DNA from: Gemmatimonadota bacterium
GTDB lineage: Bacteria > Gemmatimonadota > Gemmatimonadetes > Palauibacterales > Palauibacteraceae
NCBI GenBank assembly: GCA_039587755.1
Contig: JBDHBD010000001.1
Location: forward strand, 199,947 to 263,946
Length of the DNA stretch: 64,000 bases
Reading direction: 5' to 3'
Positions 27,869 through 61,522 of this stretch are shown here, piece after piece. Made by a program: the position numbers and the translations under genes. The notes below the pieces were generated by a model. The model was not told where the DNA came from and did no database searches. It saw nothing but the letters and a program-made list of their open reading frames with translations. Position 1 is the stretch's first letter. Each line of letters begins with the position of its first letter.

Positions 27869-28282
27869 GCGAGCCCGTGGCCACAAGGCTCTAATGGTTA
27901 GACGAGGCCGCGCATCTTCACGACAGCCTCCGGGGCGCGATCGGTCTCGACGCGTCGCCTCAGTCCGAAAGTCCGCACGACGAGACGCTTCAGAGATCAA
28001 CATTGCTCGCACGAAGTAGGATGCCTCACGCGGTACGCTCAACCGGGCTCACTGGGCCACGGCCGGATCCGGAACCGCTGGGCCGGCTAGAGGCTAGCCG
28101 AACCGGGGCGAGAGTGTCAAGCGTCGCCACCAGGTACCGCCATGCCGCCCGGAGGGGCTTGCCAGATCGACAGGAGGTCGTGTCGATTGGACTCAGCGAG
28201 AGCCGATCCGACAATGGACGTGAGGTGAAACGATGAGCACCTGCGCGGGGGCTTGCTGATGAGAGTGGCAAACGCAGAGGGG

Positions 28283-31047: not shown

Positions 31048-31602
31048 GAGGAACAGGTGATAGAGGACACGAAGGACACGAAGCGAGGAGAGCACGCGAG
31101 CGGCTCGCATTCCGGAAAGCCGGCAGACCAGGCAGCCGGCGGAGAGGGCGACGGCACGGAGACCGCCCGAGAGCACACGCGCGGCTGGAGTCCTTGGACC
31201 TCCTTTACGGAGATACAGGATGCGGTCACCGACATGGTGGACTCGGCTCTGCGAGGCGTGGCTCCGATCGGCGGGGGCAGGCCCCGCTACGACCTCGTTC
31301 AGGTTCCCGAGGAGGGCTATTGGGTGCTCATGGATCTGCCCGGAGTGGTAAAGGAGGACCTCGACGTTACGACGGTCGGGGATGAGCTGACGGTGAGCGG
31401 CCGACGTCACCGGCCCGATCTGCCGGATGGGTCCGAGGTGCGACGGTCCGAGCGAGGGTACGGGCACTTTCGGCGCACGCTGCGCCTTCCAGCAGACGTG
31501 GACGTCGCCGGGATCAAAGCCAGGCTCGAATCGGGCGTGCTTCGCGTCACGTTGCCTCGCCGGGCCGAGTCCGCGGAGGTCCATGTCGAGGTCGAGACGT
31601 GA
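31048..31602 (+). CDS. Hsp20/alpha-crystallin family small heat-shock protein
   Basis: Alpha-crystallin domain ([17 protein letters not shown]...GVLRVTLPR). The GTG at 31048 is preceded by AAGGAGG (31034-31041). Disordered N-terminus. Confidence 0.85.
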
Positions 31603-31636
31603 TCCGACCCGACTCGAGCGAGAGGTCGCGGACCCT

Positions 31637-36483: not shown

Positions 36484-36566
36484 GCCCGCGCGACGCGGCG
36501 ATACAGGTGTCGCGCCTCCCGCTCGCTCGGAGGGGGAGGCGTTTTCATTGGCAGGCGCGAGGGACC

Positions 36567-37418
36567 ATGGCGGGGACGCTGTTCCTGGTGAGCACGCCGA
36601 TCGGTAACCTTTCCGATGTGAGTGAGCGTGCGCTGGGCGTGCTTGGCGAGGTGGACATCTGCTACGCCGAGGACACCCGGCACACCGGTCGCATGCTGGC
36701 GCGCCTGGGCGTCGACGTCCCGCTGCGGTCGCTCCACGGTCACAACGAGGTGGCCAGAGTGAGAGAGATCGTCGAACGGCTGGACCGCGGCGAGCGTTGT
36801 GCGCTGGTGAGCGATGCCGGCACGCCGGCCATCTCCGATCCAGGAAGGGCCGTCGTGGGCGCGGTTCACGATGCTGGTTTCCCGGTCGTTCCCATTCCGG
36901 GGCCCTCAGCCGTAACGGCGGCCATCGCTGCGAGCGGCCTGTCGGCCGACCGGTTTCTCTTCTTGGGCTTCGCGCCCCGCCGCGGGTCGTCGCGTCGAGA
37001 CTGGCTCAATCAAGTCGCGGACTCTTCGTTCACGGTCGTGATCTTCGAGTCACCGCGCCGGGTTCAGCGGCTGCTGGAGGAGTTGAGCGACGCCGGTCTC
37101 GCTGAGCGCAAGTGCATCGTGTGCCGTGAGCTGACGAAGCTTCACGAGGAGATCTTGCGCGGAAGTGTGGCGCAGGTGGGTCGGCAACTCGACGAGGAGA
37201 GACTTCGCGGCGAGTTCACCATCGTCGTGGAAGGCGGCAAGGTCGAGCGCGAGACCCCGCCGGAAGCCGAAGCACGAGCAGCGGCGCTCGCGGTAGCCGG
37301 AGAGGGCACCCGGCAGATCGCGTCTCGACTGCAAGCCGAGTTCTGCCTCGCGCGCAACGAGGCGTACAGATGCGCCCTGCTCGCCGTGCAGACCGCCGGC
37401 GAGTCGATCGATGAGTGA
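36567..37418 (+). CDS. rsmI: 16S rRNA (cytidine1402-2'-O)-methyltransferase RsmI
   Basis: Tetrapyrrole-methylase-fold N-terminus LFLVSTPIGNLSDVSERAL and ...YAEDTRHTG.... Confidence 0.85.
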   Translation: MAGTLFLVSTPIGNLSDVSERALGVLGEVDICYAEDTRHTGRMLARLGVDVPLRSLHGHNEVARVREIVERLDRGERCALVSDAGTPAISDPGRAVVGAVHDAGFPVVPIPGPSAVTAAIAASGLSADRFLFLGFAPRRGSSRRDWLNQVADSSFTVVIFESPRRVQRLLEELSDAGLAERKCIVCRELTKLHEEILRGSVAQVGRQLDEERLRGEFTIVVEGGKVERETPPEAEARAAALAVAGEGTRQIASRLQAEFCLARNEAYRCALLAVQTAGESIDE

Positions 37419-40400
37419 ACCGAGCTCGCTCGCCTCTGTGCGTGAGGGAACGCTGCGGCTGCGACGTCGGGCGCTGGTCGCCGTCGTCACCGCCGGTCTG
37501 GCCGGGTCGGGGTGTGTTCTCCTGCTGCTCACGTTGCTTCCCGATCGCACGCTGACTGCACCAGGGGCTCTCCTGTCCCTTGCAGGCACGGGGCTCTTCG
37601 TCACCTCGATCCTGGCCGCGGTCTACGGGAGCCATCGCGTGATCGGCCGACTCACGCCCCGCCGGCTCGCTCTTGAGGCCGAGGGCCCGTCGGGGCTGGG
37701 CACCGGCGATCTTCTGGCCGCGCTGGAGCTGGAGTCGGGAGAAGGGTCGGGCTCGGCATCGCTGGCGAGCGAGCACGTCACGCGAGTAGCGAAGCGTGTC
37801 GGCGACCTCGACACAGCCGGGTTGTTCCCGCACAGTGCGCGCCGCTGGGCTCGCAGGCTTCGTGTCGCGCTCACGTCCGCAGGCCTGGTCGTGTCGTTGC
37901 TGGGGCTGAGTGCCCTCACGCGTCCGGAGTCGACGAAGGCGGCCGCGATCGCCATGGCCACGCCGTGGCGTGCCGTCCTCCCCGCACCCCGTCCTCCGAT
38001 CCTGGTGGAGCCCGGCCACGCACAGGTGGCCCGCGGCGACAGCCTTAGCGTACGAGTGCTGGCACCCAGCCGGTCGCGCGTGGACCTCGTGTGGCAGGTC
38101 GTGGGAGAGAAGAGACGCGGCCGGCAGATAGACGTGACGCCCGACGGCACGGGCTCCGAAACGATCCCCTCGGTCGTCGCGCTGACCCGGTATTGGGTGG
38201 AGGGATTGGACGGAGTGTCGAGCGACACGTTCGCGATCCAGCCGCTGGAACCACTGCTGGTGGAGCAGCTGCACGTCGTGATGTCCTATCCGTCGTACCT
38301 GGGGCGTCCGCCCGACAGCATCGCGGCCCCCCTCCCGACATTGGTCATGCCGGCCGGCACGAGAATCGAGCTGTCCGGTCGCGCGAACTACAGCCTCGTG
38401 GAGGTCCACCTCGCCTTCCGACCTCTCACGCTGAGCTCGGACGCCGCCGAACGACCCGGCTCATCCGCTCGGACGGCGGCGCCAACAAGCATCGACGTGG
38501 ACGCGCACCATTTCGGCGGGCAGATCCAACCAGTGTTCAGCGGCGAGTGGACCTGGCACCTGCGCGCCGCCGATGCCCCGGGAGAGCCTGTCCCGCCCGC
38601 GCCGATCGAAACGCTGGTGATTCCGGATAGCGTTCCGCGGGTCCGTGTGCTCTTCCCGGCCGCCGATACGGCGCTCCGGGGCGACGCCGTGCTGCCCCTG
38701 GTCGCGGAGGCGCGGGATGACATCGGTCTGCGATCCGTGGAGCTTGTGAGTTGGCTTGGATCGGCGCCCGCTGACCAAGCAGGCCCACGCGTTGAGCGCC
38801 TCGGCCCGGAGCGCGCCGGAGACAGTCGGGCCCTCGTGCGACCGCTGCTCGATCTGCGCGACAGGGAGCTGTTACCGGGTGACACGGTCTATTACGTCGT
38901 GCGGGCGACCGACGCCAATCCGACCCATTCATCGGCGAGCTCCGACACATTCCGCGTTTGGCTGCCGACGCTGGCCGACATGGGCGTCGCGCGGGCCGAG
39001 CAAATGCAGGAGCTGGCGAGCGCGACGGAGGCGCTCGAGGCGGCTGCCGGCGATCTGGAGCGTGCGGCGAGAGAAGAGGCTCGGCGCGCGACGTCGCCGG
39101 AAACAGGCGATCCGGCGCCGCGTCCGACGCCAGACTCGCCCTCGGCGAGCTCGAAGGCGCTGTCCGAGCGGTCCGCGCTGCAGGACCGCGGCGAGGAGCT
39201 CGGCCGTGAGCTTCGGGAGCTCCAGGACGAGATCGAGCGTCTGCACTCTCAGCTGAAATCTTCGTTGCACGGCGATCCGTCGCTGGAGCGAGAGCTGACG
39301 AAGCTGGCCGAGCAGTGGCGCGAGGGCACGAGCGACCGGCTGGATTCGGCGAGCCGAGAGCTGGGTGAGCGACTCCAAGCGAACGACCCGGGCGCCGCTC
39401 GAGATGCCCTCGACCAGCTGGCGCGGGAGGCGCGAGCGCTGCGTGACCAGCTGCAGGCCACAGGCGGCCGGTTGGAAATGGCGGCACTCGAGCAGTCGCT
39501 GAAGGCCTCGCGCGCGGAAGCGGCGGAGCTGGCAACCCGTCAGGAGGCTGCGACCGATGCGCTCTCGCACCACGCCGACTGGTCCGAGCGAGAAGAGGGT
39601 CTGGCTGACGACGCGGAGGCGCTGGCGAAACGGCTGGGCGACCTGGAGGGCCAGCTAGAAGGGCTAGGTGCCGAGGAGGAGGCGGATTCGTCCGGTGTGG
39701 CTGGTGAGCGTGCCGCTCAGGCCGGTGAACAGATGCGCGAAGCCGCCCGTCTCGCGGCGGCCGAGAAGCGAGAGAGGGACCGTGAAGCGGACGTCGGCCA
39801 GGGCGAGCAGCGGCCGCGGGGAGATCCGACACCCCCGGCGGGCACACCGCCTGCGGCCGAACAGCAGGCTCGCAAAGCGACGGAGAATCTGCAACGAGCG
39901 GCGGAGGCGCTGGATGCGGCCGGTTCGGATTTGTCGGGCGAGCGGGACGACGCAGCCCTGGCGACTCTGGCTCGGGCCCGAACCGAGGCCCTTCAGTTGG
40001 CAGGCGAAGAACTGGGCTTGCTCGAGGCCAGGCCTGACGAGACGGCGCGCGGTCGGCAGGCTGCCCTCCGCCAGGGACTCGATAATCTCGCGCAACGCCT
40101 GGCCGAGGCTCGCGACGCGGGCGCCTTCGGGGACCGAGCGATGACGGCGCAGGTCGATGCCGCGACTCGCGCAATGGACTCGGCGATCGAGCGGCTGTCT
40201 GAAACGGGACGCAGCGCCGCCGCCGCCCAGGCGCACCGGGACGCCATTGAAGCCCTCAACGATCTGGCGCTGCAGCTTCTGGAGGCAGAGCAATCCAGCA
40301 GCACCGCCTCGGCTGGAGCGGCGGGTCAGGAGGCCAGGGAGCGCATGTCGGCTCTGGCACAGCAGCAAGGCGGGGTGACAGAGCGCACGCGAGCCCTGCA

Positions 40401-40923
40401 CCGCCTGGATGCGGAAGGGCGCGACGTTCGTCCGCAAGCGGAACAGCTCGCCCGCGAGCAGGCGCGCATCGCGGAGGAACTGGAATTGCTGGGGCGGGAC
40501 GAGGATGAGCTGCTCGGCGAGCCGGCGGCGCTGGCTCGCGAGGCGCACGAGCTCACAGACCGATTGACGACCGGCCGCGTGGACTCCGAGACCCTGGACA
40601 GACAGCGCGGCCTCTTCCGTCGGATGCTCGACGCCGGTCGGTCGCTGGAGCAGGACGAGTTTGACACGGAGCGCCGCGAGTCGCGTACCGGCGAGGCCGT
40701 TTTGCGTGACGTGCCGGAGCTCGACCCGAGCCTCCTGGCCGGACCCCGCTTCCCGCTTCCGGAGGAGACGGCCCTCGGTCGACTTCCACCGTACTATCGT
40801 CGCCTGGTCCTCGAGTACTTCGATCGGCTGAACAACGCGGAGGCTGGCGGGCTAGATCGAGCGACCGATCAGGAGCAAGGTGGTGATGAGCGGGTCGAAG
40901 GACGGCATGGTGGGCGTGAGTAG
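37411..40923 (+). CDS. Giant membrane-anchored coiled-coil protein of unknown function (DUF4175-like?)
   Basis: 1170 aa. Two N-terminal TM helices, a ~450-aa beta-rich region, a ~540-aa Ala/Glu/Arg/Leu coiled coil and a conserved-looking C-terminus (LPPYYRRLVLEYFDRL). The start overlaps rsmI by 8 bp. Confidence 0.6.
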   Translation: MSEPSSLASVREGTLRLRRRALVAVVTAGLAGSGCVLLLLTLLPDRTLTAPGALLSLAGTGLFVTSILAAVYGSHRVIGRLTPRRLALEAEGPSGLGTGDLLAALELESGEGSGSASLASEHVTRVAKRVGDLDTAGLFPHSARRWARRLRVALTSAGLVVSLLGLSALTRPESTKAAAIAMATPWRAVLPAPRPPILVEPGHAQVARGDSLSVRVLAPSRSRVDLVWQVVGEKRRGRQIDVTPDGTGSETIPSVVALTRYWVEGLDGVSSDTFAIQPLEPLLVEQLHVVMSYPSYLGRPPDSIAAPLPTLVMPAGTRIELSGRANYSLVEVHLAFRPLTLSSDAAERPGSSARTAAPTSIDVDAHHFGGQIQPVFSGEWTWHLRAADAPGEPVPPAPIETLVIPDSVPRVRVLFPAADTALRGDAVLPLVAEARDDIGLRSVELVSWLGSAPADQAGPRVERLGPERAGDSRALVRPLLDLRDRELLPGDTVYYVVRATDANPTHSSASSDTFRVWLPTLADMGVARAEQMQELASATEALEAAAGDLERAAREEARRATSPETGDPAPRPTPDSPSASSKALSERSALQDRGEELGRELRELQDEIERLHSQLKSSLHGDPSLERELTKLAEQWREGTSDRLDSASRELGERLQANDPGAARDALDQLAREARALRDQLQATGGRLEMAALEQSLKASRAEAAELATRQEAATDALSHHADWSEREEGLADDAEALAKRLGDLEGQLEGLGAEEEADSSGVAGERAAQAGEQMREAARLAAAEKRERDREADVGQGEQRPRGDPTPPAGTPPAAEQQARKATENLQRAAEALDAAGSDLSGERDDAALATLARARTEALQLAGEELGLLEARPDETARGRQAALRQGLDNLAQRLAEARDAGAFGDRAMTAQVDAATRAMDSAIERLSETGRSAAAAQAHRDAIEALNDLALQLLEAEQSSSTASAGAAGQEARERMSALAQQQGGVTERTRALHRLDAEGRDVRPQAEQLAREQARIAEELELLGRDEDELLGEPAALAREAHELTDRLTTGRVDSETLDRQRGLFRRMLDAGRSLEQDEFDTERRESRTGEAVLRDVPELDPSLLAGPRFPLPEETALGRLPPYYRRLVLEYFDRLNNAEAGGLDRATDQEQGGDERVEGRHGGRE

Positions 40924-42769
40924 ACGAACGGCTCTTCGGACCCGTCGATGCAGCGAGAGACTGGCTCGGGCGGCGTTCCTGACCCTGCTCCTGCAGACGG
41001 GGTTCGGTCTCGCGGGACACGTGAGACATGCAGGGGCTCAGGAAGGACCATCGGCACGCATCGAGCGTTCGCTGGATCACGCGAATCGTCTGCTCCGGGC
41101 CGGCCGGGCGGAGGAAGCTAGCAGGGTCCTCGAAACGCTGCTCGAAGAGCATCCGACTTCAGCGGACGCGCTGGCCCTCCTGTTTGGCGTTACCGGCGAG
41201 CTCGGCAAGCCAGAGGCTTTCCTGTCTTTCATCGCGACGGCAGCCCGCCACGGCGGGACGGGTGAGGCGGCTCTCCAGGAGCTATGGGTGCGCGGTCTTC
41301 TGCGTGCCGAGCATGCCGATGAAGCGCGAACCGTTGCAGAACGGTGGTTGGAAGAGAGAAAGAGTGAGCCGCGGGCGTATGCCGCGCTCGCAGCGGTCCA
41401 CACAGCGACCGGTCGGCCGAGCCGCGCGATCGAGAGTCTCGAGCGGGGTCGTCGGCAGGTAGGGGACCGCACGCTGTTTCGGGCTGAGCTCGCGGTCTTA
41501 TACGCGGAGGTGGGCCGGTTCGAGGCGCTGGTCGCGGAGTGGCTGGCGCGGCTGGCGGAGCGGCCTCCGGATCTCGGAGCCGTGCAGCGGGAGATCACGG
41601 CGCTCGAATCACGTGCGGCCGCAATCGAAGCCCTGTGGTCTGCAGCCGCCGAGACAAACCGTGAACCGGAGATGCAGCAGTCCGTGGCTCTGCTCGCGTT
41701 GCGCTTCGGCAGGGCCGATGCGGCACGCCGGATTCTGAGTCTCGCGCTCCCCTCGCTGCCAGCGGGCCAAGCGTCGGTAGCTCTGGCCGCGTACGTGCGT
41801 GAAGCCGAGGAAGCCGCGCTGGTGGAGGAAGCTGCCTGGGGGGCGATGCGGCTGACGGAGGTGGCCGCGTCGCCGCGCGAACGCTGGCGCTGGCTGGCGC
41901 TTGCCGGAGAGAGAGCGCTCGAGGCGGGCGATACCGCGAGTGCTCTGGCCTCGGCGGAACGGCTGGTCGCACAGGCGCCTCCGGGGAGTGAGGGTGCCAC
42001 TCGTGCGCTGGAGCGGTTGGTCACGCTGCTGGCCGCACGACCCTCCGGAATCGACGCGGCGACGCGGCAGCTGGAGGCCTACGTTCGGGCGCACCCGGAC
42101 TCCAGCATGAGAATCGCCGATCTCACGCTCGCCGTTGCTCAGGGCCAGGTGCGTGCAGACCGACGCGCGGCCGCAGGCGAGCTCTTGCGGGAGGCACCGG
42201 TTGGAGAAGGTGCGGCCAGGCATGTTCTGAATGCGGCGCTGGCAGTGCTCGAGCTACAACGAGGACGGCAGGCGGGAGCGCTCGAGCTATTACGCAGCGC
42301 GGCAACAGGCGAGGGGGTTCCAGAGGATATGCGGACGCGCTGGATCTCGCTGCTGGCGGTCCTCGAATCGGCTGATTCGTTGGAAGTCGCGTCGCTCGGC
42401 CGCGCACTCGAGACAGCGGCCGCTGCGCCGGCAGCCTTCGATCCCACCGCGCTGCTGGAGCAGTGGACCGGGCGCCCGGTGGCCAGCGGTCGAGCGGCAG
42501 CGCTCGCCTTTCTGGCCGGTGAGCTGGAAGCGACCGGGCGGACGGACGCGGCGGTCGCCGTTCACGAAGCGCTTGTGCGGGAGCTTCCTGATAGTCCCGA
42601 GACGGCAGCGGCCATGCTCGCTCTGGCGCGGCACGCGCTCGGTACCGATTCGGCGCGTAGCCGAACGTGGCTCGAGCGCCTGGTAACCCGATTTCCAGAC
42701 AGTGCCGTCGCACCCCTTGCCCGCCGAGTGCTCGCGGAGCTGAGCGGACGCGGGCCGGCGGGCGATTAG
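40880..42769 (+). CDS. Secreted TPR-like helical repeat protein
   Basis: Signal peptide AFLTLLLQTGFGLAGHVRHAGAQE, then Ala/Leu-rich TPR-like repeats over ~600 aa. Start uncertain (40880-40940 has several candidates); overlaps the upstream gene. Confidence 0.55.
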   Translation: MVMSGSKDGMVGVSRRTALRTRRCSERLARAAFLTLLLQTGFGLAGHVRHAGAQEGPSARIERSLDHANRLLRAGRAEEASRVLETLLEEHPTSADALALLFGVTGELGKPEAFLSFIATAARHGGTGEAALQELWVRGLLRAEHADEARTVAERWLEERKSEPRAYAALAAVHTATGRPSRAIESLERGRRQVGDRTLFRAELAVLYAEVGRFEALVAEWLARLAERPPDLGAVQREITALESRAAAIEALWSAAAETNREPEMQQSVALLALRFGRADAARRILSLALPSLPAGQASVALAAYVREAEEAALVEEAAWGAMRLTEVAASPRERWRWLALAGERALEAGDTASALASAERLVAQAPPGSEGATRALERLVTLLAARPSGIDAATRQLEAYVRAHPDSSMRIADLTLAVAQGQVRADRRAAAGELLREAPVGEGAARHVLNAALAVLELQRGRQAGALELLRSAATGEGVPEDMRTRWISLLAVLESADSLEVASLGRALETAAAAPAAFDPTALLEQWTGRPVASGRAAALAFLAGELEATGRTDAAVAVHEALVRELPDSPETAAAMLALARHALGTDSARSRTWLERLVTRFPDSAVAPLARRVLAELSGRGPAGD

Positions 42770-42782
42770 GGGGATTCGCGAA

Positions 42783-44078
42783 ATGAGCCCCCGGTCGGGT
42801 CCCGCAGCACGCGCCGCCCGTCTTCGGTTGCTGGTGTTCGTCGCAGCGGCGGCCGTAAGCCTGACAGCCGCACCGGCGAGCAGCCAGCTGTTGGTGCCGA
42901 TGGACGAGCGACAGGAGAACCACCTCAAGGCGTATGGCCTCGCCTATCGTGTGCTCTCGTCGGGCGAAGAGGCGGAATGGCTACTCAACTTCCGTGCAGG
43001 GTCTTTTCTCATCCCCGACACCGAGGCGAACCTGCGCGCGGCGGCGCTTCTCGGGGTCACGGTGGAGCGAATCGACCCTCGAAGCCTGGCCGATCTGCGA
43101 GGCCAGCTGGAAGGCGGCAACATGGAATCGGTGCCGCTCGAGAAGGCCCCTCTCGTCGCCGTGTATACACCCCCGAACAGCTCGCCGTGGGACGATGCAG
43201 TCACGATGGCGCTCGAGTATGCGGAGATCCCTTACGAGAAACTGTGGGATCGGGAGGTGCTGAGCGGCGCGTTGGACCGGTTCGACTGGCTGCACCTGCA
43301 TCACGAAGACTTCACCGGACAGTACTCGAAGTTCTACCTGACCTACGCGGCCGCCGAATGGTTGCAGGAAGAGGTGGGGCGCAATGAGGCAATGGCGGTC
43401 GACCTGGAGTTTCCGTCGGTGCCCGCCCTCAAGAAGGCGGTGGCCCGGCGGATCCGGGATTACGTCGAACAGGGTGGGTTCATCTTCGCGATGTGTACGG
43501 CGACGGAAACGCTCGAGCTCGCGCTGGCCGCCGAGCAGGTTGACATCGCGGCCTCTTTTTCCGACGGGACACCACCCGATCGGGACGCAGAGCGGCGCTT
43601 GGACTGGGACGCCGCGATGGCGTTCGAGGGCGCGTCGCTGATCACCGATCCTTCGCTGAGCGCCTTCAGCGACATCGACGGCCATCAGGTCAACACACCG
43701 TGGCGCAAACCGCTGGCCACCTTTTCCTTGTTCGAATACGCGGCAAAGGTCGATCCAGTGCCCGCCATGTTGACGCAAAGTCATGAACGGGTGCTGCCGG
43801 ACTTTTACGGGCTCACCACGAGCTTCAGCCGTGAGCGGCTCAAGGCGGGCGTGACGGTCCTCGCTGAAGAGGCGAACACCGGACGGATCAAGTACCTGCA
43901 CGGACAGTTCGGCGAGGGAACTTTCACCTACCTCGGGGGGCACGATCCGGAAGACCCCCGCCACTTGATCGGGGATCCGCCGACCGATCTCGATTTGGAG
44001 CGGCATTCACCGGGTTATCGCCTCATCTTGAACAACGTGCTCTTTCCTGCCGCCCGAAAGAAGAAGTTGAAGACGTGA
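42783..44078 (+). CDS. Secreted protein with putative class-I glutamine-amidotransferase-like (ThuA/DUF4159-like) fold
   Basis: Signal peptide LLVFVAAAAVSLTAAPASSQ. The pattern LVAVY...WLHLHHEDF...YVEQGGFIFAMC resembles the protein at 60564-61406. 431 aa. Confidence 0.5.
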   Translation: MSPRSGPAARAARLRLLVFVAAAAVSLTAAPASSQLLVPMDERQENHLKAYGLAYRVLSSGEEAEWLLNFRAGSFLIPDTEANLRAAALLGVTVERIDPRSLADLRGQLEGGNMESVPLEKAPLVAVYTPPNSSPWDDAVTMALEYAEIPYEKLWDREVLSGALDRFDWLHLHHEDFTGQYSKFYLTYAAAEWLQEEVGRNEAMAVDLEFPSVPALKKAVARRIRDYVEQGGFIFAMCTATETLELALAAEQVDIAASFSDGTPPDRDAERRLDWDAAMAFEGASLITDPSLSAFSDIDGHQVNTPWRKPLATFSLFEYAAKVDPVPAMLTQSHERVLPDFYGLTTSFSRERLKAGVTVLAEEANTGRIKYLHGQFGEGTFTYLGGHDPEDPRHLIGDPPTDLDLERHSPGYRLILNNVLFPAARKKKLKT

Positions 44079-45001
44079 AGTTGCGCCGCTCGTCGCCCCG
44101 CGGGCGTGGAAACGGTCTCCGCGTCTCCAGGCTCGGTGCACCGGTCCGCGGTGGGTACGGGCGTCGCTCCCGTGAGCGGGGCTACCGACGCGCGCTCGCC
44201 ACCGGTCTGATTCTCTCGGTGCTCGCCCACACCGTCGTGCTCGTGCTGTCGGGTCGGCTTCCTTTTGGCGCTCTGCGTGGCCCGATTCCCGAGGATGCGG
44301 AGCTTCCGCGGGCTCCGGGCCTGGTCATCGTGGGGATCACCGAGGTGCAGAGCCCGGCTCCTCCCGAAGAGGCGCGTGCGGAGGCGCGCCGACCGGAGGA
44401 GACAGAGGTGGTCCGTATCGCGCCGCTGCCGCCGGAGGGCGGGGGAGAAGAGGAGGCAGCGGCGGAAGAGGCGGAAGAGGAGCCGGAACCTTCGCTCACG
44501 AACGCCGAGCGACTGCGCCCGCGCTACGGCGACCGTCGGGTATGGATCGATCCGGACGAACTGGACCTGTATGGTGAGCGTCTGGCCCGATACGCCCGTG
44601 CGGACAGCGCCGTGCGTGCGATTCTCCGGAACTGGCTGGACAGCCTGGCGCTCAGTGAGGAGGAGCGCCGCCGTGCCCTCGACTGGACGCTGAAAAAGGG
44701 CGACGAGCGCTGGGGAATCTCGCCCGAAGGGCTCCACCTGGGAGACATCACGATCCCCATCCCGTTTTCTCTCGCACCCAGTGGCCCCCAGCGTCGTGAG
44801 TTCGAGCAGGCACTGCGTGACCTGCAGGAGATCAGGCGGCAGGACCTGCAAGCCGACCTGGAGGAGAACAGGAGGGAGCGGGCCGAGGAGATGCGCAGGC
44901 GATCGCGCGAAGAGGCGGAGCGTCGACGCCAGGCCGAGGAAGCCGACAGCACTCTCTCGGTCCTGCCCGCGCGCGTTGGCATTGGAGACAACCGCCGTTA
45001 A
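44075..45001 (+). CDS. Hypothetical bitopic membrane protein with acidic linker
   Basis: Arg-rich N-terminus, one TM helix (LATGLILSVLAHTVVLVLS), an E/A-rich acidic low-complexity region and an R/E-rich helical C-terminus. ATGA overlap with the upstream gene. Confidence 0.5.
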   Translation: MKLRRSSPRGRGNGLRVSRLGAPVRGGYGRRSRERGYRRALATGLILSVLAHTVVLVLSGRLPFGALRGPIPEDAELPRAPGLVIVGITEVQSPAPPEEARAEARRPEETEVVRIAPLPPEGGGEEEAAAEEAEEEPEPSLTNAERLRPRYGDRRVWIDPDELDLYGERLARYARADSAVRAILRNWLDSLALSEEERRRALDWTLKKGDERWGISPEGLHLGDITIPIPFSLAPSGPQRREFEQALRDLQEIRRQDLQADLEENRRERAEEMRRRSREEAERRRQAEEADSTLSVLPARVGIGDNRR

Positions 45002-45075: not shown

Positions 45076-47751
45076 TTGAGTCGAGAACTATCCAGTCGAT
45101 ACGACCCTTCGGACAGCGAGAAGGAGCTGTACCGTGAGTGGGAGGGGCAGGGGTTCTTCCGGGCCGATGAGAAGCTGGCGCAGGACCCGTACGTCATCGT
45201 CATCCCACCGCCCAACGTGACGAACGTGCTCCACATGGGGCACGGTCTCAACAACACGATCCAGGATGTTCTGGTGCGCTGGCGCCGGATGCAGGGCCGT
45301 GACACGCTGTGGCTGCCGGGCACCGATCACGCGGGGATCGCCACCCAGAACGTCGTAGAGCGGGAGCTCGCGGCAGAGGGGTCGACCCGTTTGGATCTGG
45401 GCCGCGACGCGTTCGTGGAGCGCGTGTGGGAGTGGGTGCGCGAGTATGGAGGTCAGATCATCGAGCAACTCAAGGTGATCGGCTGCTCGTGCGACTGGAG
45501 CCGCACCCGCTTCACGCTGGACGAAGGCCTCTCACGTGCGGTGCGCGAGGTCTTTGTGCGGCTGTACGAAAAGGGGCTGCTGTACCGGGGTCGCTACATC
45601 ATCAACTGGTGTCCCCGCTGCACCACGGCACTCTCGAACGAGGAGAGCGAGCACCGAGAGCACGACGGGAAGCTGTATCGCATTCGCTACCCGCTGGCGG
45701 ACAACACGGAGCGGTTCGTCGAGGTGGCTACCACGCGTCCGGAGACGATGCTTGGCGATACGGCCCTGGCCGTGCACCCGGAGGACGAGCGGTACGCTGA
45801 TCTGGTGGATCGGGAGGCGATTCTGCCGCTGGTGGACCGACGTCTCCCGATCGTGGCCGACGAATTCGTCGATCCCGAGTTCGGCTCGGGCATCGTGAAG
45901 GTGACACCGGCTCACGACCCCAACGACTTCGAGATCGCCGGGCGTCACGATTTGGAAGCGATCGACATCCTGACGGACCACGCCAGAATCAGCGATGAAG
46001 CTCCTGAGGCGTACCGCGGCCAGGATCGCTTCGAGGCGCGTGAGGCCGTGCTGGCCGACCTGGATCGCGCTGGACTTCTTGTGCAGATCGAGGAGCATCG
46101 GCACTCGATCGGCCACTGCTATCGGTGCGGTACGATGGTCGAGCCACGGCTCAGCCTGCAGTGGTTCGTGCGCATGGAGCCGCTGGCCCGACCCGGCCTG
46201 GAAGCGTATCGGGATGGCAAGCTCCGCTTCTATCCGCAGCGATACGGCCGGATCTACGAGCACTGGATGGAGAACATCCGGGACTGGTGCATCAGCCGTC
46301 AGCTGTGGTGGGGTCACCGGATTCCCGTCTGGTACTGTCAGAGAGAGACGTGCGGGGAGATGGTGGTGTCGCGTGAGGATCCGGATCGCTGTCCCGAATG
46401 CAGTGGCTCACTCGAGCAGGACCCGGACGTGCTCGACACGTGGTTCAGCTCGTGGCTGTGGCCGTTCAGCACTCTTGGCTGGCCAGAGGACACGGCGGAT
46501 CTGACGGTGTTCTATCCCACCAGCACGCTTTGCACGGCGTCCGAGATCCTGTTCTTCTGGGTCGCCCGGATGGTGATGGCCGGGTACGAGTTCATGGGCG
46601 AGCTGCCGTTTGCCGACGTCCTGATTCACGGAACGGTCCGCGACCACATCGGTCGACGGATGTCCAAGTCGCTGGGCAACGGGATCGACCCGATCGAGGT
46701 CGTGCAGCTCTTCGGAGCGGACGCGATGCGTTTCACGCTGATCCGTGGGGCAGCGCTGGGAACCGATCTACAGCTCAACTACGAGGACCTTGAATCCGCC
46801 TTCCGGCCGGGCCGAAACTTCGCGAACAAGATCTGGAACGCGGTCCGCTTTGCGCTTCCATACCTGCAGGATGCGGACGCCGTGGACCCGGCCGAGCGAG
46901 ACCTGGAGTTGGCGGACCGCTGGATCCTCAGCCGGTTCGGCGCGACCGGCGAAGAGGTCACGGAGGCTCTGGAAACGTATCGACTGCACGAGGGAGCGGA
47001 GCTGACCCACGCGTTCGTGTGGGGAGATTTCTGCGACTGGTATCTCGAGCTGGTGAAGGGCCGACTGGAGGGCGAGCGGGGATCGGACAGCCGCGACGCG
47101 GCAGCCGCGACCCTCGTATATGTGACACGCAGCTGGCTGCGTCTTTTGCATCCCGTGATGCCGTTCATCACCGAGGAGTTGGCTCGGAGGCTGCCCGGCG
47201 AGGCGTCGGAGTCGAGTCTGGTGCTCGGACCGTGGCCGGAGCCCGACCGGAAATGGCGTGACGCCGGGGCGGAGCATGCCATGGAGGCCCTGCAGGAGTT
47301 CGTGGCCACGGTGCGCAACCTTCGATCCGAGTACCACGTGGATCCCCGTACGGGTGTCACCGTTCACCTGCAACGAGACGCCGGCGATCTGGAACACGCG
47401 CTCGCGGTCGAGGAGAAGGGCATGTACCGCCTGGCGGGGATCACGAATCTCGACCGCTCGGCGCCTCCAGCGGACGGTCCCGGCGCGAGCGCCGTGCTGC
47501 GCGCGGGAGCCGAAGTGTTCGTTCCGCTGTCCGGCGTGATCGACGTCGACCGCGAGCGAACGCGTCTGCAGACGGAGGTCGGCCGATTGGAGGATCTTCT
47601 AGCCAAGACTTCGGCTCGCCTGGGTGACGAGGCGTTCCTCGCCAAAGCCCCGGAGGACGTCGTGGAACGCGAACGACAAAAGGAGCGATCGCTGGCCGAA
47701 CAGAGGGACCGGTTGGTCGAGAAGAGGCGTGCCCTCGGACCCACTGGCTGA
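45076..47751 (+). CDS. valS: Valine--tRNA ligase
   Basis: HMGH (VLHMGHGLN) and KMSKS (RMSKSLGN) motifs, a C-terminal coiled coil; 891 aa. TTG start. Confidence 0.95.
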   Translation: MSRELSSRYDPSDSEKELYREWEGQGFFRADEKLAQDPYVIVIPPPNVTNVLHMGHGLNNTIQDVLVRWRRMQGRDTLWLPGTDHAGIATQNVVERELAAEGSTRLDLGRDAFVERVWEWVREYGGQIIEQLKVIGCSCDWSRTRFTLDEGLSRAVREVFVRLYEKGLLYRGRYIINWCPRCTTALSNEESEHREHDGKLYRIRYPLADNTERFVEVATTRPETMLGDTALAVHPEDERYADLVDREAILPLVDRRLPIVADEFVDPEFGSGIVKVTPAHDPNDFEIAGRHDLEAIDILTDHARISDEAPEAYRGQDRFEAREAVLADLDRAGLLVQIEEHRHSIGHCYRCGTMVEPRLSLQWFVRMEPLARPGLEAYRDGKLRFYPQRYGRIYEHWMENIRDWCISRQLWWGHRIPVWYCQRETCGEMVVSREDPDRCPECSGSLEQDPDVLDTWFSSWLWPFSTLGWPEDTADLTVFYPTSTLCTASEILFFWVARMVMAGYEFMGELPFADVLIHGTVRDHIGRRMSKSLGNGIDPIEVVQLFGADAMRFTLIRGAALGTDLQLNYEDLESAFRPGRNFANKIWNAVRFALPYLQDADAVDPAERDLELADRWILSRFGATGEEVTEALETYRLHEGAELTHAFVWGDFCDWYLELVKGRLEGERGSDSRDAAAATLVYVTRSWLRLLHPVMPFITEELARRLPGEASESSLVLGPWPEPDRKWRDAGAEHAMEALQEFVATVRNLRSEYHVDPRTGVTVHLQRDAGDLEHALAVEEKGMYRLAGITNLDRSAPPADGPGASAVLRAGAEVFVPLSGVIDVDRERTRLQTEVGRLEDLLAKTSARLGDEAFLAKAPEDVVERERQKERSLAEQRDRLVEKRRALGPTG

Positions 47752-58416: not shown

Positions 58417-60594
58417 GTGAACGTGACGGACGAACTCGGTCGTAAGGTGCTGGAGTTCCACGTCGAGGGCATGAATTGTCCCGACTGCGTCCGCCGCGTG
58501 CGGGACCGACTGGCCAGCGTGGATGGCGTCTTCGCCGCGGAGGGGAGTCCCGTAGCACGCCGTCTCACGGTGACGGTCGATGAAACGCGTGTCGATCGTG
58601 CGCGCATCGGACGCGAGCTCGGGAAGATTGGTTTCGTGGCCCGGGAGGAAGCTGCGGCGGACGCTCCCTCACGAATCTGGTCTACCCCACACGCTGTTCG
58701 CACCTACGTGTCTGCGGTGCTGTTCGGTCTCGCGCTGCTTCTCGAGCTGGTCGGTGTGGGCGCGGCTCCTGTGCAGATCCCACCCGTCGGTGTTCCGTGG
58801 ACCGACCTCCTGTTTGTGACCGCCGCGCTCGTCGGAGGCTGGAACTTCATCCCCGCCGGCCTCCGCGCCGTCGTGGCACGACGGCTCGACATGAACTTCC
58901 TCATGACGGTCGCGATCTTGGGTGCGATCGGGATCGGGGAGTTCCTGGAAGCCGGGGCGATCGCCTTTCTGTTCTCGGTTGCTGAACTCCTCGAAGGTTA
59001 CGCCGTCGAGCGCGCCCGACACTCCATCCACGCGCTCATGCAGCTGTCGCCCGACCGCGCGAGGCTTCTGAAAGGCGGTGAAGAGGTCGTGGTTGCCGCA
59101 GACGAGCTGCACCGGGGCGACCTCGTTGTCGTACGCGGTGGAGACAAGATCCCGGCCGACGGCACCGTGCTCGATGGGGGTGCCGCCGTGGACGAGTCGA
59201 CGATCACGGGGGAATCGATCCCCGCGGACCGGACCCCGGGCGACGAAGTGTTCGCGGGCACGATCTGCGCCGGCGGTTACCTGAAGATCCATGTGACACG
59301 CGTGGCGGGTGAGACCACGCTGGCGGAGATCGTCCGAATCGTCGAGGAGGCCGAATCGCGTCGTTCCCACACGGAGCGGTTCGTGGAGCGCTTTGCTAGG
59401 TACTATACGCCGTCCGTGACCGTGGCCGCCGTGCTGGTCGTCGCTATCCCCACGCTGGCGTTCGGTGGCGCATTCACCACCTGGTTCGTGCGCGGCCTCA
59501 CCCTGCTCGTGATCGCGTGTCCGTGCGCTCTCGTCATCTCGACGCCCGTTGCGGTAGTCAGCGGCATCACGGCGGCGGCCAGGCATGGTGTGCTCATCAA
59601 GGGTGGGCAATTCCTGGAGGCGATGGGTGGAGTCGCCTCGGTCGCTTTCGACAAGACGGGGACGCTGACCCATGGGCACCCCGAAGTGACGGAGGTGATC
59701 GCGCTCCGGGGCACCCAAGACGAAGTGCTCTCGCTAGCGGCCGCCGTGGAAAACCGTGCGGAGCACCCGATCGCACGGGCGATCGTCCGAGCCGCGGAAG
59801 AGCGAGGCCTGTCGGTGACGGACCGAGTGGTCCGTGGGTTCGAGTCCCAACTGGGGAGCGGGGTCTGGGCACAGGTCGACGGGGTGGAGATCCGGGTCGG
59901 ATCCGAAGATCTGTTCGAGGACGGCGCACCGCGAGACCGTCTCGCGGCGCTGCACAGGTCCGGCAGGACTGCCGTGCTGGTGGGGCCGGCGGCCGCACCG
60001 GTGGGCGTCGTGGCGGTTGCCGATCGTCCTCGAGAAGCGGCCCCGGAGGCGATTCGCGCGCTACGGTTAGCGGGAGTACATACAGTGATGCTGACAGGCG
60101 ACCACCGCGAGACGGCGAACGCGATCGCAGCCGAGCTGGGCATCGACGAGGTCTATGCCGGATTGAAGCCGGCGGACAAAGTGGACGCCGTGCAGCGGCT
60201 GGAGGCCGAGCACGGGCACGTCGCCATGGTTGGAGACGGGGTCAATGACGGACCGGCCCTCTCGGTCGCGAGTGTGGGGATCGCCATGGGAGCAGCGGGG
60301 AGCGACGTAGCCCTGGAGACCGCCGATGTCGCTCTGATGTCGGACGATCTGTCGCGACTGCCTTATCTGCACGCCCTCTCACGTACGGGCCGTCGCGTCA
60401 TCCGCCAGAACATTATCGCATCGCTCGTCGCCAAGTTCGCCCTCGCGATTGGCGTCCCCTTCGGCGTCGTCTCTCTGGTCGCGGCGGTTCTGATCGGAGA
60501 CATGGGCGCTTCGCTGGCCGTGACGACCAACGCGCTGCGGCTCGCTCGAGTGCGACCCCCGCCTCACCGAGCCGAGGCAGAGGACAGAGCGTAG
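58417..60594 (+). CDS. Heavy-metal translocating P1B-type ATPase (Zn/Cd/Pb-type)
   Basis: N-terminal HMA domain GMNCPDC, TM CPC motif (IACPCALVIS), DKTGT phosphorylation site, and GDGVNDGPAL hinge. Confidence 0.9.
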   Translation: MNVTDELGRKVLEFHVEGMNCPDCVRRVRDRLASVDGVFAAEGSPVARRLTVTVDETRVDRARIGRELGKIGFVAREEAAADAPSRIWSTPHAVRTYVSAVLFGLALLLELVGVGAAPVQIPPVGVPWTDLLFVTAALVGGWNFIPAGLRAVVARRLDMNFLMTVAILGAIGIGEFLEAGAIAFLFSVAELLEGYAVERARHSIHALMQLSPDRARLLKGGEEVVVAADELHRGDLVVVRGGDKIPADGTVLDGGAAVDESTITGESIPADRTPGDEVFAGTICAGGYLKIHVTRVAGETTLAEIVRIVEEAESRRSHTERFVERFARYYTPSVTVAAVLVVAIPTLAFGGAFTTWFVRGLTLLVIACPCALVISTPVAVVSGITAAARHGVLIKGGQFLEAMGGVASVAFDKTGTLTHGHPEVTEVIALRGTQDEVLSLAAAVENRAEHPIARAIVRAAEERGLSVTDRVVRGFESQLGSGVWAQVDGVEIRVGSEDLFEDGAPRDRLAALHRSGRTAVLVGPAAAPVGVVAVADRPREAAPEAIRALRLAGVHTVMLTGDHRETANAIAAELGIDEVYAGLKPADKVDAVQRLEAEHGHVAMVGDGVNDGPALSVASVGIAMGAAGSDVALETADVALMSDDLSRLPYLHALSRTGRRVIRQNIIASLVAKFALAIGVPFGVVSLVAAVLIGDMGASLAVTTNALRLARVRPPPHRAEAEDRA

Positions 60595-61406
60595 AGGAAC
60601 AGGTTGACCCCCATGCGGAGCGCCTGCTCTCGCACCTCCGGCGGGTCGCCATGCACCGCGGGATCCTCCCAGCCGTCGCCCAGATCGCTCTGATAGCTGT
60701 AGAAGACGGCGAGTCGTCCGTCCAGGAAGATCCCCAAACCCTGCGCTGGCAGACCGTCGTGTTCGTGGATCTTTGGCAGCCCTTCCGGAAAGTCGTACAG
60801 GAGGTGGTAAACGGGGTGGTCGGTCGGCACGTCCACCAGGTCGCGGTCCGGGAAGAGCCGCTTCACCTCACGTCGAAAAGACTCGTCCAGACCGTAGTTG
60901 TCATCCGCGTGGAGGAAACCACCGGCCTGCAGATGCCCGCGCAGGCTGCGAAGCTCGACCTCGCTGAGACGGATGTCCCCGTGTCCGGTGAGGTACAGGT
61001 AGGGGTAGTCGCTCAGCTCCGGGTCCGACAGACGGACCTCTACGGGGCGCGCACCGACCTGCACCGCCGTACGCTCCCGCAGGGCCTCGAGTAGATTTGG
61101 GAGGCTGGACGGATTTGCGTACCAGTCGCCCCCGCCCTCGTAGCGCACGCGCGCGACCGTCGGGGCAGCTGCCGCATCCGTGGTCTGCGCGTCGCGTGCG
61201 AACAGAGCGGGGCACCCCTCGGCCAGCACCGCGCCGGCCACGCCGGCCGAGGCTGCCACAAGCAGGGCCTGGGGAAACCAGTTCCCGCGGCGCTGCCGGA
61301 CGCGACAGTGGGGGCAGTGACGCGAATGGTCCGGAATGTGAGTCTCGCAATACCTACAGGGCTTCAATCCGCCCTCCCGTGTCATGCGCGCGAACCATCG
61401 TCGCAC
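60564..61406 (-). CDS. DUF4159-like (ThuA-like / class-I GATase-fold) protein with N-terminal zinc ribbon and TM helix
   Basis: N-terminal C-x2-C-x9-C-x2-C (CRYCETHIPDHSRHCPHC), one TM helix, then a domain with YPYLYLTGHG...LRGHLQAGGFLHADDNYG as I recall for DUF4159. Convergent with the ATPase gene, overlapping it by 31 bp. Confidence 0.55.
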   Translation of the reverse strand: MRRWFARMTREGGLKPCRYCETHIPDHSRHCPHCRVRQRRGNWFPQALLVAASAGVAGAVLAEGCPALFARDAQTTDAAAAPTVARVRYEGGGDWYANPSSLPNLLEALRERTAVQVGARPVEVRLSDPELSDYPYLYLTGHGDIRLSEVELRSLRGHLQAGGFLHADDNYGLDESFRREVKRLFPDRDLVDVPTDHPVYHLLYDFPEGLPKIHEHDGLPAQGLGIFLDGRLAVFYSYQSDLGDGWEDPAVHGDPPEVREQALRMGVNLFLYALSSASAR

Positions 61407-61522
61407 ACCTACTCATATCAATCTAGACAGACGGTGGTTCTCTCGCTCGCTGTATCCGACTGAGGATCGTAGGATGGTCCAGGCCTAGATTACGTGACGC
61501 CGGAAAAGGTACAGGGAGAAGC

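What the first reader, a model, noticed from the sequence alone, without database searches (positions are those of the whole stretch)
37411..45001. Tightly coupled four-gene operon of uncharacterised envelope proteins downstream of rsmI - candidate undescribed system
The four ORFs overlap or abut (8-bp overlap with rsmI, ~44-bp overlap between genes 1 and 2, 14-bp gap between genes 2 and 3, ATGA between genes 3 and 4), implying co-translation. They encode a 1170-aa inner-membrane-anchored protein with a ~540-aa coiled coil, a ~600-aa secreted TPR protein, a 431-aa secreted protein with a glutamine-amidotransferase-fold-like signature, and a bitopic membrane protein with an acidic linker. None carries a catalytic motif I can assign. 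The architecture resembles the poorly understood MoxR/DUF58/DUF4159/DUF4175 and Bat (aerotolerance) families of envelope complexes. Here no AAA+ ATPase, DUF58 or VWA gene is in the operon. A DUF4159-like paralog sits 15 kb away at 60564-61406.
Basis: partly seen in the sequence, partly recalled or inferred. Interest (0 to 1): 0.72.

Follow-up and report, generated by a model that had tools for sequence, protein, structure and literature searches.

The report
Conserved FCB envelope operon, function unknown
These genes are the Gemmatimonadota copy of an uncharacterised, tightly linked cell-envelope gene set found across the Bacteroidota-related (FCB) phyla, and one member is an exported protein, mislabelled "asparagine synthetase B", that keeps an enzyme-like Cys-His-Glu site.

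Summary
The four ORFs are real and sit at the stated coordinates, with small corrections to the junctions. Comparison with 84 related loci changes what the unit is.

- **Conserved unit.** The unit is DUF4159, g1, g2, g3. Its modal junction is a 4-nt overlap, and it occurs in Gemmatimonadota, Eisenbacteria, Neomarinimicrobiota and other FCB lineages.
- **This lineage.** The DUF4159 gene has left the operon. It is the gene at 60564-61406, so it is the displaced first member and not a paralog of g3.
- **g4.** It is found only in Gemmatimonadota. In most relatives it lies 4-6 kb away, so it is not a core member.
- **g1.** It is a divergent DUF4175-type protein with three TM helices, three beta-sandwich domains and about 630 residues of helical bundles.
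- **g2.** It is a signal-peptide TPR protein.

No MoxR, DUF58 or VWA gene is in the window, and I found no publication on the module.

Best reading: an inner-membrane-anchored periplasmic complex that carries a thiol hydrolase or acyl-transferase. The chemistry and the substrate are inferred, not shown.

The parts
37411..40923 (+). g1: divergent DUF4175-type inner-membrane protein of 1170 aa. TM helices at nt 37474-37530, 37567-37623 and 37864-37920. Three periplasmic beta-sandwich domains at nt 38002-38961. Helical-bundle region at nt 38971-40860. Conserved C-terminal motif RQ..L.RR.LDAGR...YF.RL.
40880..42769 (+). g2: TPR protein with a signal peptide (629 aa from GTG 40880; the likely start is ATG 40886).
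   Evidence: TPR_14 E 9e-12 and TPR_19 E 5e-9. Junction sequence. Homologs in low-GC genomes have clear signal peptides. Found between g1 and g3 in 56 or more loci.
42783..44078 (+). g3: exported protein of 431 aa with a class-I glutamine-amidotransferase-like fold, named 'asparagine synthetase B' at NCBI. Signal peptide at nt 42783-42884. Cys238 at 43494-43496. His387 at 43941-43943. Glu390 at 43950-43952. HLHHEDF motif around 43293-43313. Conserved C-terminal KKxxKT.
44075..45001 (+). g4: bitopic membrane protein of 308 aa. Arg-rich N-terminus, TM at nt 44192-44248, acidic Pro-rich linker, and a small conserved C-terminal motif (DWT..G..G...P.P). It is adjacent here but is not a conserved member of the module.
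   Evidence: Homologs occur only in Gemmatimonadota, usually 4-6 kb downstream of g3 and next to valS. No Pfam or PDB relative.
60564..61406 (-). DUF4159 protein of 280 aa with an N-terminal CxxC...CxxC zinc ribbon and a TM anchor. It is the displaced ortholog of the gene that lies directly upstream of g1 in 47 related loci.
   Evidence: PF13709 E 2.9e-66. Sequence. 43-64% identical to the 12 in-operon copies aligned (60-64% to five of the six Gemmatimonadota copies). Position of those copies. PDB relative 4i66.
36507..37418 (+). rsmI-like methyltransferase (TP_methylase). It is the upstream neighbour throughout Gemmatimonadota and overlaps g1 by 8 nt here. It is probably only a co-transcribed housekeeping gene.
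   Evidence: rsmI is absent from this position outside Gemmatimonadota.

Best explanation
The locus is the Gemmatimonadota version of an envelope module conserved across the FCB superphylum. Its usual form is DUF4159, g1 (DUF4175-type), g2 (TPR) and g3 (exported GATase1-like protein).

Most likely mechanism:
- g1 sits in the inner membrane through three helices. It projects three Ig-like domains and a long chain of helical bundles into the periplasm as a scaffold.
- The secreted TPR protein g2 acts as an adaptor or assembly factor.
- The two GATase1-fold proteins, DUF4159 and g3, dock on this scaffold. DUF4159 has Asp-Asp where g3 has Met-Cys at the elbow.
- g3 is the catalytic subunit. It would work as an ATP-independent thiol hydrolase or acyl/amido-transferase that forms a Cys238 acyl-enzyme, with His387 and Glu390 as the rest of the triad. 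Its target would be an amide or ester bond of an envelope component.

Shown: gene content, order, coupling and distribution; predicted export signals and topology; folds; conservation of Cys, His and Glu.

Inferred: that the proteins form one complex, that g3 is catalytically active, and what its substrate is. A gamma-glutamyl-type amide bond, for example in peptidoglycan stem peptides, is only a guess by analogy with other Cys-His-Glu members of this fold.

g4 is a lineage-specific neighbour and is probably not part of the module.
For: Module:
- DUF4159 lies directly upstream of g1 in all 47 loci where both genes were found, and in one more where the g1 stretch gave no ORF. 47 of 81 loci carry all four genes.
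- The modal junction is a 4-nt overlap at all three junctions: 30/47, 25/56 and 35/69.
- The loci span Gemmatimonadales, Longimicrobiales, Eisenbacteria, Neomarinimicrobiota and unclassified FCB MAGs.
- In L073 the operon is exactly these four genes, bounded by genes on the opposite strand.

Localisation:
- Homologs of g2, g3 and the in-operon DUF4159 have signal peptides.
- g1 has three TM helices, with Arg-rich segments on the cytoplasmic side.

Folds:
- g1: beta-sandwich domains plus helical bundles.
- DUF4159 is placed in the same Pfam clan on structural grounds (PMC4702930).

Active site:
- In the model, Cys238 lies between strand 233-237 and helix 239-249, within A-M-C-x-A. This matches the small-x-nucleophile-x-small elbow.
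- G-G-H387-D-P-E390 follows strand 379-384, like the HPE motif seen in this window's own GuaA.
- Among 239 full-length relatives, Cys is kept in 235, His in 238, Pro389 in 239 and Glu in 229.
- g3 is about as conserved as valS: 73-74% against 66-76% identity to L001 and L002. g1 and g2 are 37-40% identical.

Export of g3 is also supported by T9SS type-A sorting domains on 7 of 16 diverse homologs.
Against: - There is no experimental or interaction evidence. Complex formation rests on gene order alone.
- g3 occurs alone in Spirosoma, in CTD-bearing Bacteroidota, and in loci labelled Cloacimonadota, Ignavibacteriales and Chlorobiota. It can therefore work without g1 and g2.
- In this genome DUF4159 is unlinked. 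It is membrane-anchored rather than secreted.
- I could not obtain the model coordinates, so the proximity of Cys, His and Glu was not measured. pLDDT is below 50 at 389-397.
- No sequence profile links g3 to a catalytic GATase.
- The His-rich surroundings (H47, H171, H173, H174, H334, H387) would also fit a metal site.
- The conservation sample is weighted towards Gemmatimonadota.
Confidence: 0.5

Rival explanations
1. The module is purely structural or an assembly scaffold. g3 and DUF4159 are non-catalytic GATase1-like interaction or ligand-binding domains, as in IFT52/GldG 'GIFT' domains, OST48 and GH42 domain B. The conserved Cys and His residues of g3 bind a metal or are structural.
For: Many of the best fold matches are non-catalytic members: GH42 domain B, ThuA-like proteins, IFT52-N, OST48, 2gk3 and 3rht. 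DUF4159 lacks the Cys. g3 has a cluster of invariant His and Asp residues (H47, H174, D176, H334, H387, D388) that would suit a metal site.
Against: The Cys sits at the canonical elbow, the H-x-P-E motif is present, and both are conserved at 96-99%. This is what catalytic members show and non-catalytic ones have lost. g3 is very highly conserved.
Confidence: 0.22
2. The module is the periplasmic client or effector part of a MoxR-DUF58-VWA (Bat-like) chaperone system whose ATPase genes lie elsewhere in the genome.
For: From my own knowledge, DUF4159 and DUF4175 proteins are often found near MoxR, DUF58 and BatA-type genes in other phyla. A TPR component parallels BatC and BatE.
Against: No MoxR, DUF58 or VWA gene is in the 64-kb window. 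None appeared among the flanking genes I scanned against Pfam in L013, L059-L061, L069, L071, L073, L074 and L078, nor in the called genes of L001. In L073 the four genes form a self-contained operon.
Confidence: 0.15
3. g3 is an independent secreted enzyme, for example a glutaminase or gamma-glutamyl hydrolase used for nutrient scavenging. Its position behind g1 and g2 in some phyla reflects co-regulation or tethering rather than a shared machine.
Against: 4-nt overlaps between g2 and g3 in 35 of 69 loci across several phyla point to stoichiometric co-expression. The identity between phyla (50% or more) is unusually high for a scavenging enzyme.
Confidence: 0.12
4. g3 is asparagine synthetase B, as NCBI records name it.
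For: Only the name carried by NCBI entries.
Against: g3 has a signal peptide, or a T9SS CTD in homologs. It has no hit to any Asn_synthase or class-II GATase model in Pfam or NCBIfam. Its fold is class-I GATase-like with no synthetase domain, and it is only 431 aa.
Confidence: 0.01

Closest known systems
DUF4175 (PF13779) membrane proteins. A. baumannii AdvA carries a partial DUF4175 match (PMC7481262).
   Same: Both have N-terminal TM helices followed by a very large extracytoplasmic, partly low-complexity helical region. The operon-equivalent ortholog in L073 passes the Pfam gathering score.
   Different: g1 itself does not hit the model. L013 and L059 orthologs score below threshold at 22.5 bits. 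No DUF4175 protein has a known function. AdvA is a division protein that shares only the N-terminal membrane part.
DUF4159 (PF13709; solved relative 4i66, Hoch_4089, uncharacterised).
   Same: The window gene at 60564-61406 is a full member (223 bits). Its orthologs form the first gene of the module. It shares the GATase1-like clan fold with g3.
   Different: g3 is not a DUF4159. It has no Pfam hit, and hhalign aligns only about 15 residues before the elbow (probability 13%). The window's DUF4159 carries a zinc ribbon and a TM anchor in place of a signal peptide.
Class-I glutamine amidotransferase-like superfamily. Catalytic Cys-His-Glu members include GuaA, PdxT, PurQ, HisH, peptidase C26/SpuA and MetA. 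Non-catalytic members include ThuA-like proteins, GH42 domain B and IFT52-N.
   Different: There is no detectable sequence similarity. g3 is exported rather than cytoplasmic. It has an extra N-terminal alpha/beta subdomain (residues 35-119) with the invariant motif PMD..Q.NHLKAYG. It has a long insertion at 260-355, a His-rich HLHHEDF loop and a basic KKxxKT C-terminus.
Bat (Bacteroides aerotolerance) / MoxR-DUF58-VWA envelope operons.
   Same: Both are multi-gene envelope modules of unknown mechanism that combine membrane-anchored proteins with TPR proteins.
   Different: No MoxR ATPase, DUF58 or VWA (BatA/BatB) gene is in the operon or the window.

Membership tests
DUF4175 (PF13779), for g1 | Pfam HMM score at or above the gathering score (27.3 bits) | tested here: not met
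   g1 has no PF13779 hit at E<=0.1. Orthologs: L073 70.4 bits (met); L013 22.5 bits and L059 22.7 bits (below threshold).
DUF4175 (PF13779), for g1 | Homology and positional equivalence to a protein that is a member | tested here: met
   phmmer of g1 against the L073 ortholog gives E 5e-10 with collinear matches. Both lie between DUF4159 or rsmI and the TPR gene.
DUF4175 (PF13779), for g1 | N-terminal TM helices followed by a large extracytoplasmic helical, low-complexity region | tested here: met
   TM helices at 22-40, 53-71 and 152-170; helical region at 521-1150.
DUF4159 (PF13709), for the gene at 60564-61406 | Pfam HMM score at or above the gathering score (25.9 bits) | tested here: met
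   223.3 bits, E 2.9e-66, covering profile positions 2-202 of 202.
DUF4159 (PF13709), for g3 | Pfam HMM or profile-profile similarity to DUF4159 | tested here: not met
   No Pfam hit. hhalign probabilities are 1.7% and 12.9%, over 15-19 columns only.
Class-I glutamine amidotransferase-like fold, for g3 | Structural match to the GATase1 core | tested here: met
Class-I glutamine amidotransferase-like fold, for g3 | Catalytic Cys at the nucleophile elbow plus His and Glu (HPE-type motif) | tested here: inconclusive
   The sequence and secondary-structure positions fit. Conservation is 235/239 for Cys, 238/239 for His and 229/239 for Glu. The 3D geometry could not be measured, and 389-397 has low confidence.
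Class-I glutamine amidotransferase-like fold, for g3 | Sequence-profile membership (PF00117 GATase, PF07722 Peptidase_C26 and related models) | tested here: not met
   No hits at E<=0.1. hhalign against the window's GuaA GATase domain gives probability 0.1%.
Class-I glutamine amidotransferase-like fold, for g3 | Glutaminase or thiol-hydrolase activity | not testable with these tools
   Needs biochemistry.
Asparagine synthetase B (the NCBI name of g3 homologs) | N-terminal class-II (Ntn) amidotransferase domain and a C-terminal Asn_synthase ATP-pyrophosphatase domain; cytoplasmic | tested here: not met
   No such Pfam or NCBIfam hits. g3 has a signal peptide and a class-I-like fold without a synthetase domain.
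Bat / MoxR-DUF58-VWA system | MoxR AAA+ ATPase, DUF58 protein and VWA (BatA/BatB) proteins encoded together | tested here: not met
   None is in the operon, or among the other window ORFs I scanned against Pfam (most ORFs of 250 aa or more). None was seen in the flanks of related loci that I scanned. The rest of the genome could not be searched.
T9SS cargo, for g3 | C-terminal type-A sorting domain (TIGR04183 / PF18962) | tested here: not met
   The window's g3 ends in ...ARKKKLKT with no CTD. Homologs P0133-35, P0141, P0142 and P0150 do carry it (34.9-50.4 bits against a cutoff of 23). P0147 scores below the cutoff (17.1 bits).

The most novel reading that the evidence does not exclude
g3 founds an undescribed family of exported Cys-His-Glu enzymes specific to the FCB superphylum. 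Together with DUF4159, a TPR adaptor and the DUF4175 scaffold, whose talin-like chain of helical bundles extends into the periplasm, it would form a new envelope-maintenance machine. This machine would cut or transfer an amide-linked envelope component, such as a peptidoglycan stem peptide or a surface-protein or glycan anchor. That would give the first biochemical handle on the DUF4159/DUF4175 group of 'unknown' envelope modules.
Probability: 0.2. Interest if true: 0.8.

Novelty: new variant of a known kind. Interest (0 to 1): 0.55.

Why it matters
DUF4159 and DUF4175 proteins are widespread envelope proteins with no known function. My literature searches found almost nothing about them.

This analysis shows that in several FCB phyla they form a fixed, translationally coupled operon with a TPR protein and a fourth family, g3.
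- g3 is absent from Pfam and NCBIfam.
- It is misnamed "asparagine synthetase B" in public records.
- It is about as conserved as valyl-tRNA synthetase.
- It looks like an exported thiol enzyme.
- In Bacteroidota it is a T9SS substrate.

This turns a set of DUFs into a testable hypothesis with a candidate catalytic subunit and defined point mutants. It also flags a misannotation that has spread through many FCB records. If the enzyme acts on the cell wall or on surface anchoring, it would be a lineage-specific envelope function in phyla important in soil, marine and gut ecology.

Tried and rejected
- **Homolog search with g1 residues 171-560** found nothing at E<=0.001. The full-length g1 search gave only 10 hits. 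I suspect the word index was swamped by low-complexity words, so I found g1, g2, g4 and DUF4159 relatives by my own phmmer/hmmsearch on ORFs of the fetched loci.
- **Profile comparisons of g3** with the window's DUF4159 and with the GuaA GATase domain showed no significant similarity. The idea that g3 is a DUF4159 paralog is rejected at the sequence level.
- **PDB sequence searches** for g3 and g4 gave no relatives.
- **g4** has no Pfam hit in any of 13 homologs.
- **The afdb50 fold library** was unavailable.
- **The 852-aa gene inserted between g3 and g4 in L013** might have been a missing system component, or a relative of the window's M14 peptidase. It is a DinG-like helicase and is unrelated.
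- **The 324-aa and 318-aa ORFs at 5.5-7.5 kb**, suspected to be MoxR and DUF58, are TruB and RibF.
- **The promoter/terminator scan** was uninformative inside the operon.
- **Rfam and tRNA scans** of the window were empty.
- **Literature searches** for DUF4175, DUF4159, PF13709/PF13779, MoxR/DUF58/BatA and 'asparagine synthetase B' with T9SS found no description of this module.

Full report
**1. Observation**

The window is 63-70% G+C and comes from a Gemmatimonadota genome. The best homologs of every gene examined are Gemmatimonadota MAGs.

The four ORFs are present as described: g1 37411-40923 (1170 aa), g2 40880-42769 (629 aa from the first GTG), g3 42783-44078 (431 aa) and g4 44075-45001 (308 aa).

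Junctions read from the DNA:
- rsmI and g1 overlap by 8 nt (ATGAGTGA).
- g1 and g2 overlap by 38-44 nt. ATG 40886 has an AGGAG 11 nt upstream.
- g2 and g3 are separated by 13 nt.

Upstream lies an rsmI-like TP_methylase and downstream lies valS. The rest of the window is housekeeping:
- nusA, infB, truB, ribF, pnp, mreB, pbp2, rodA, guaA
- mlaDE, an M14 peptidase, clpB, selA, purH
- cytochrome oxidase and a P-type ATPase

No MoxR, DUF58 or VWA gene is present.

**2. Database status of the four proteins**

- g1 has no Pfam or NCBIfam hit.
- g2 hits only TPR models.
- g3 and g4 have no hits.
- g3 has more than 8000 homologs in the large protein collection. The 120 listed are 66-89% identical Gemmatimonadota proteins, several named "asparagine synthetase B" by NCBI.
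- An exhaustive profile search of the library clustered at 50% identity finds 1649 clusters at E<=0.001 and 274 at E<=1e-30. Only about 20 of the best 150 listed are full length, so this is a compact, highly conserved family.

**3. Synteny: the real unit**

The 80 loci kept cover these groups, with g3 at 49-73% identity:
- Gemmatimonadota
- Eisenbacteria and Neomarinimicrobiota
- Cloacimonadota and Calditrichaceae
- Ignavibacteriales and Chlorobiota
- Bacteroidota

tblastn and iterative HMM searches on the ORFs of these loci show g1-g2-g3 contiguous in essentially all Gemmatimonadota loci that are long enough. The same order occurs in Eisenbacteria (L058, L065, L070), Neomarinimicrobiota (L059, L074) and other FCB MAGs (L060, L064, L072, L073).

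The ORF directly upstream of g1 in L059, L060 and L073 is a DUF4159 protein (E 1e-61 to 8e-71). An HMM search then found a DUF4159 gene at that position in all 47 loci where both it and g1 were found, plus one locus (L047) where the g1 stretch gave no ORF. These include most Gemmatimonadales and Longimicrobiales.
- 47 of 81 loci carry all four genes.
- The modal junction is a 4-nt overlap at DUF4159/g1 (30 of 47), g1/g2 (25 of 56) and g2/g3 (35 of 69).
- The large negative outliers are most likely artefacts of taking the longest ORF in GC-rich DNA.

In L073 the operon is exactly these four genes, flanked by genes on the opposite strand.

The window and its two nearest relatives (L001, L002) are the exception, because rsmI abuts g1 there. 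The window's DUF4159 gene at 60564-61406(-) is 43-64% identical to the 12 in-operon copies aligned, and 60-64% to five of the six Gemmatimonadota copies. It is monocistronic and has gained an N-terminal CxxC...CxxC zinc ribbon plus a TM helix where the others have signal peptides. It is therefore best read as the displaced first gene of the module, not as a paralog of g3.

g4 has homologs only in Gemmatimonadota. In most of them it lies 4-6 kb downstream of g3, next to valS. In L013 a DinG-like helicase and an FAA hydrolase lie in between. It has no Pfam or PDB relative. Its adjacency here looks secondary.

Conversely, g3 also occurs without g1 and g2. This is seen in several of the more distant loci (L067, L069, L077 and L078) in unrelated contexts. 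It is also seen in Spirosoma (L082) and in Bacteroidota MAGs (L083, L084), where it is monocistronic.

**4. The proteins**

*g1*
- It has three hydrophobic helices (22-40, 53-71, 152-170), with Arg-rich segments before TM1 and between TM2 and TM3. This places residues 171-1170 in the periplasm.
- The AF2 model (pLDDT 80, pTM 0.50) shows three beta-sandwich domains (198-517). About 16 helices of 14-58 residues follow (521-1100).
- Orthologs hit PF13779 (DUF4175) at 70.4 bits in L073 and at 22.5 bits, below threshold, in L013 and L059. phmmer of g1 against the L073 protein gives E 5e-10. g1 is a divergent DUF4175-type protein.

*g2*
- It is a TPR protein. Its homologs have clear signal peptides.

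*g3*
- Its AF2 model (pLDDT 75.6, pTM 0.78) has a class-I GATase-like core.
- Foldseek independently ranks 2gk3, lin1909, GH42 and SpuA on top.
- Cys238 lies between strand 233-237 and helix 239-249, in the sequence A-M-C-x-A. G-G-H387-D-P-E390 follows strand 379-384. The window's own GuaA shows the canonical G-I-C-Y-G and F-H-P-E for comparison.
- Among 239 full-length relatives, Cys is kept in 235, His in 238, Pro389 in 239 and Glu390 in 229. The one diverse representative that lacks Cys (P0159) also lacks His.
- Family-specific features are an N-terminal alpha/beta subdomain with invariant PMD..Q.NHLKAYG, an HLHHEDFTGQ loop, and an invariant basic C-terminus ending in KT.
- Seven of 16 diverse representatives carry a C-terminal extension of about 80 residues. 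Six of these score above the TIGR04183 T9SS type-A sorting-domain cutoff (34.9-50.4 bits). The seventh, P0147, scores below it (17.1 bits). Precomputed Pfam hits give PF18962 for two of them. The family is therefore extracytoplasmic, and in some Bacteroidota it is surface-exposed or secreted.
- No sequence similarity to DUF4159 or to a catalytic GATase is detectable. The only hhalign segment aligns the helix and strand that lead into the elbow, where DUF4159 has D-D instead of M-C.
- DUF4159 is itself placed in the GATase clan on structural grounds (PMC4702930) and has an uncharacterised solved relative, 4i66.
- g3 is about as conserved as valS: 73-74% against 66-76% identity to L001 and L002. 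g1 and g2 are 37-40% identical.

**5. Mechanism**

*Shown.* A fixed, translationally coupled set of one inner-membrane scaffold-like protein and three exported proteins. Two of the exported proteins have a GATase1-like fold, and one retains Cys, His and Glu.

*Inferred.* The proteins assemble on g1. g2 acts as a TPR adaptor. g3 is an ATP-independent thiol hydrolase or acyl-transferase that acts on an envelope component. The substrate is unknown. A gamma-glutamyl-type amide is suggested only by analogy with other catalytic members of the fold.

*Rivals.*
- A non-catalytic or metal-binding role for g3.
- Dependence on a MoxR/DUF58/VWA system encoded in trans.
- g3 as an independent secreted enzyme.
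- The NCBI name "asparagine synthetase B" fails every defining test.

**6. Comparison with what is known, and novelty**

The components belong to known but uncharacterised families (DUF4159, DUF4175, TPR) or to a known fold (g3). The Bat/MoxR resemblance is limited to these shared parts.

My literature searches found no description of the module or of the g3 family. The only hits were a partial DUF4175 match in the A. baumannii division protein AdvA (PMC7481262) and the Pfam clan note.

I rate it a new variant of a known, functionally unknown kind of envelope module, with moderate interest. Its value lies in the candidate catalytic subunit, the corrected operon composition and the misannotation it exposes.

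Noticed in passing
window 44064-44075 (the last four codons of g3), and the homologs shown: The g3 family ends in a nearly invariant basic tail...FPAA(K/R)KKxxKT-COOH (Thr431 in 232 of 239, Lys430 in 215 of 239). In T9SS-CTD-bearing homologs the CTD follows this point or replaces it. The purpose of the tail (sorting signal, lipid or LPS contact, partner binding) is unexplained.
   Followed up: partly
window 60564-61406 (-): The DUF4159 protein of this genome has an N-terminal CxxC-(x13)-CxxC zinc-ribbon-like segment and a TM helix. The in-operon orthologs have plain signal peptides. So the gene acquired a cytoplasmic zinc ribbon and a membrane anchor as well as moving.
   Followed up: partly
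L013 11182-13740 (the equivalent gene appears to lie between g3 and g4 in many Gemmatimonadales loci): An 852-aa DinG-like helicase (Helicase_C_2, DEAD_2) carries an N-terminal segment that matches the RadC-like JAB domain (E 3.5e-5). This is an unusual fusion. An FAA-hydrolase gene follows it.
   Followed up: no
window 49099-50475: A selA gene (L-seryl-tRNA(Sec) selenium transferase, E 2.5e-130) is present, so this Gemmatimonadota genome probably uses selenocysteine. No tRNA-Sec, or any other tRNA, lies in the window.
   Followed up: no
window 28253-30820: An 855-aa protein has a Peptidase_M14 (zinc carboxypeptidase) match only in residues 58-227. The remaining 600 or so residues have no Pfam match.
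   Followed up: no
window 47624-49102: A 492-aa ORF directly after valS has Big_5 and CarboxypepD_reg domains. A 489-aa gene follows valS at the same position in L001. The longest ORF overlaps the end of valS by 128 nt, so the real start is probably later.
   Followed up: no
window 31427-34237: ClpB is 936 aa, and its first listed Clp_N match starts at residue 163. This suggests an N-terminal extension or an over-long ORF call.
   Followed up: no
window 61490-62485 (-) versus 61523-62677 (+): The 331-aa minus-strand ORF next to DUF4159 has no Pfam hit. It is almost fully overlapped by a 384-aa plus-strand ORF that I did not scan. The minus-strand ORF is probably a spurious ORF of GC-rich DNA, so DUF4159 has no co-oriented neighbour.
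   Followed up: partly
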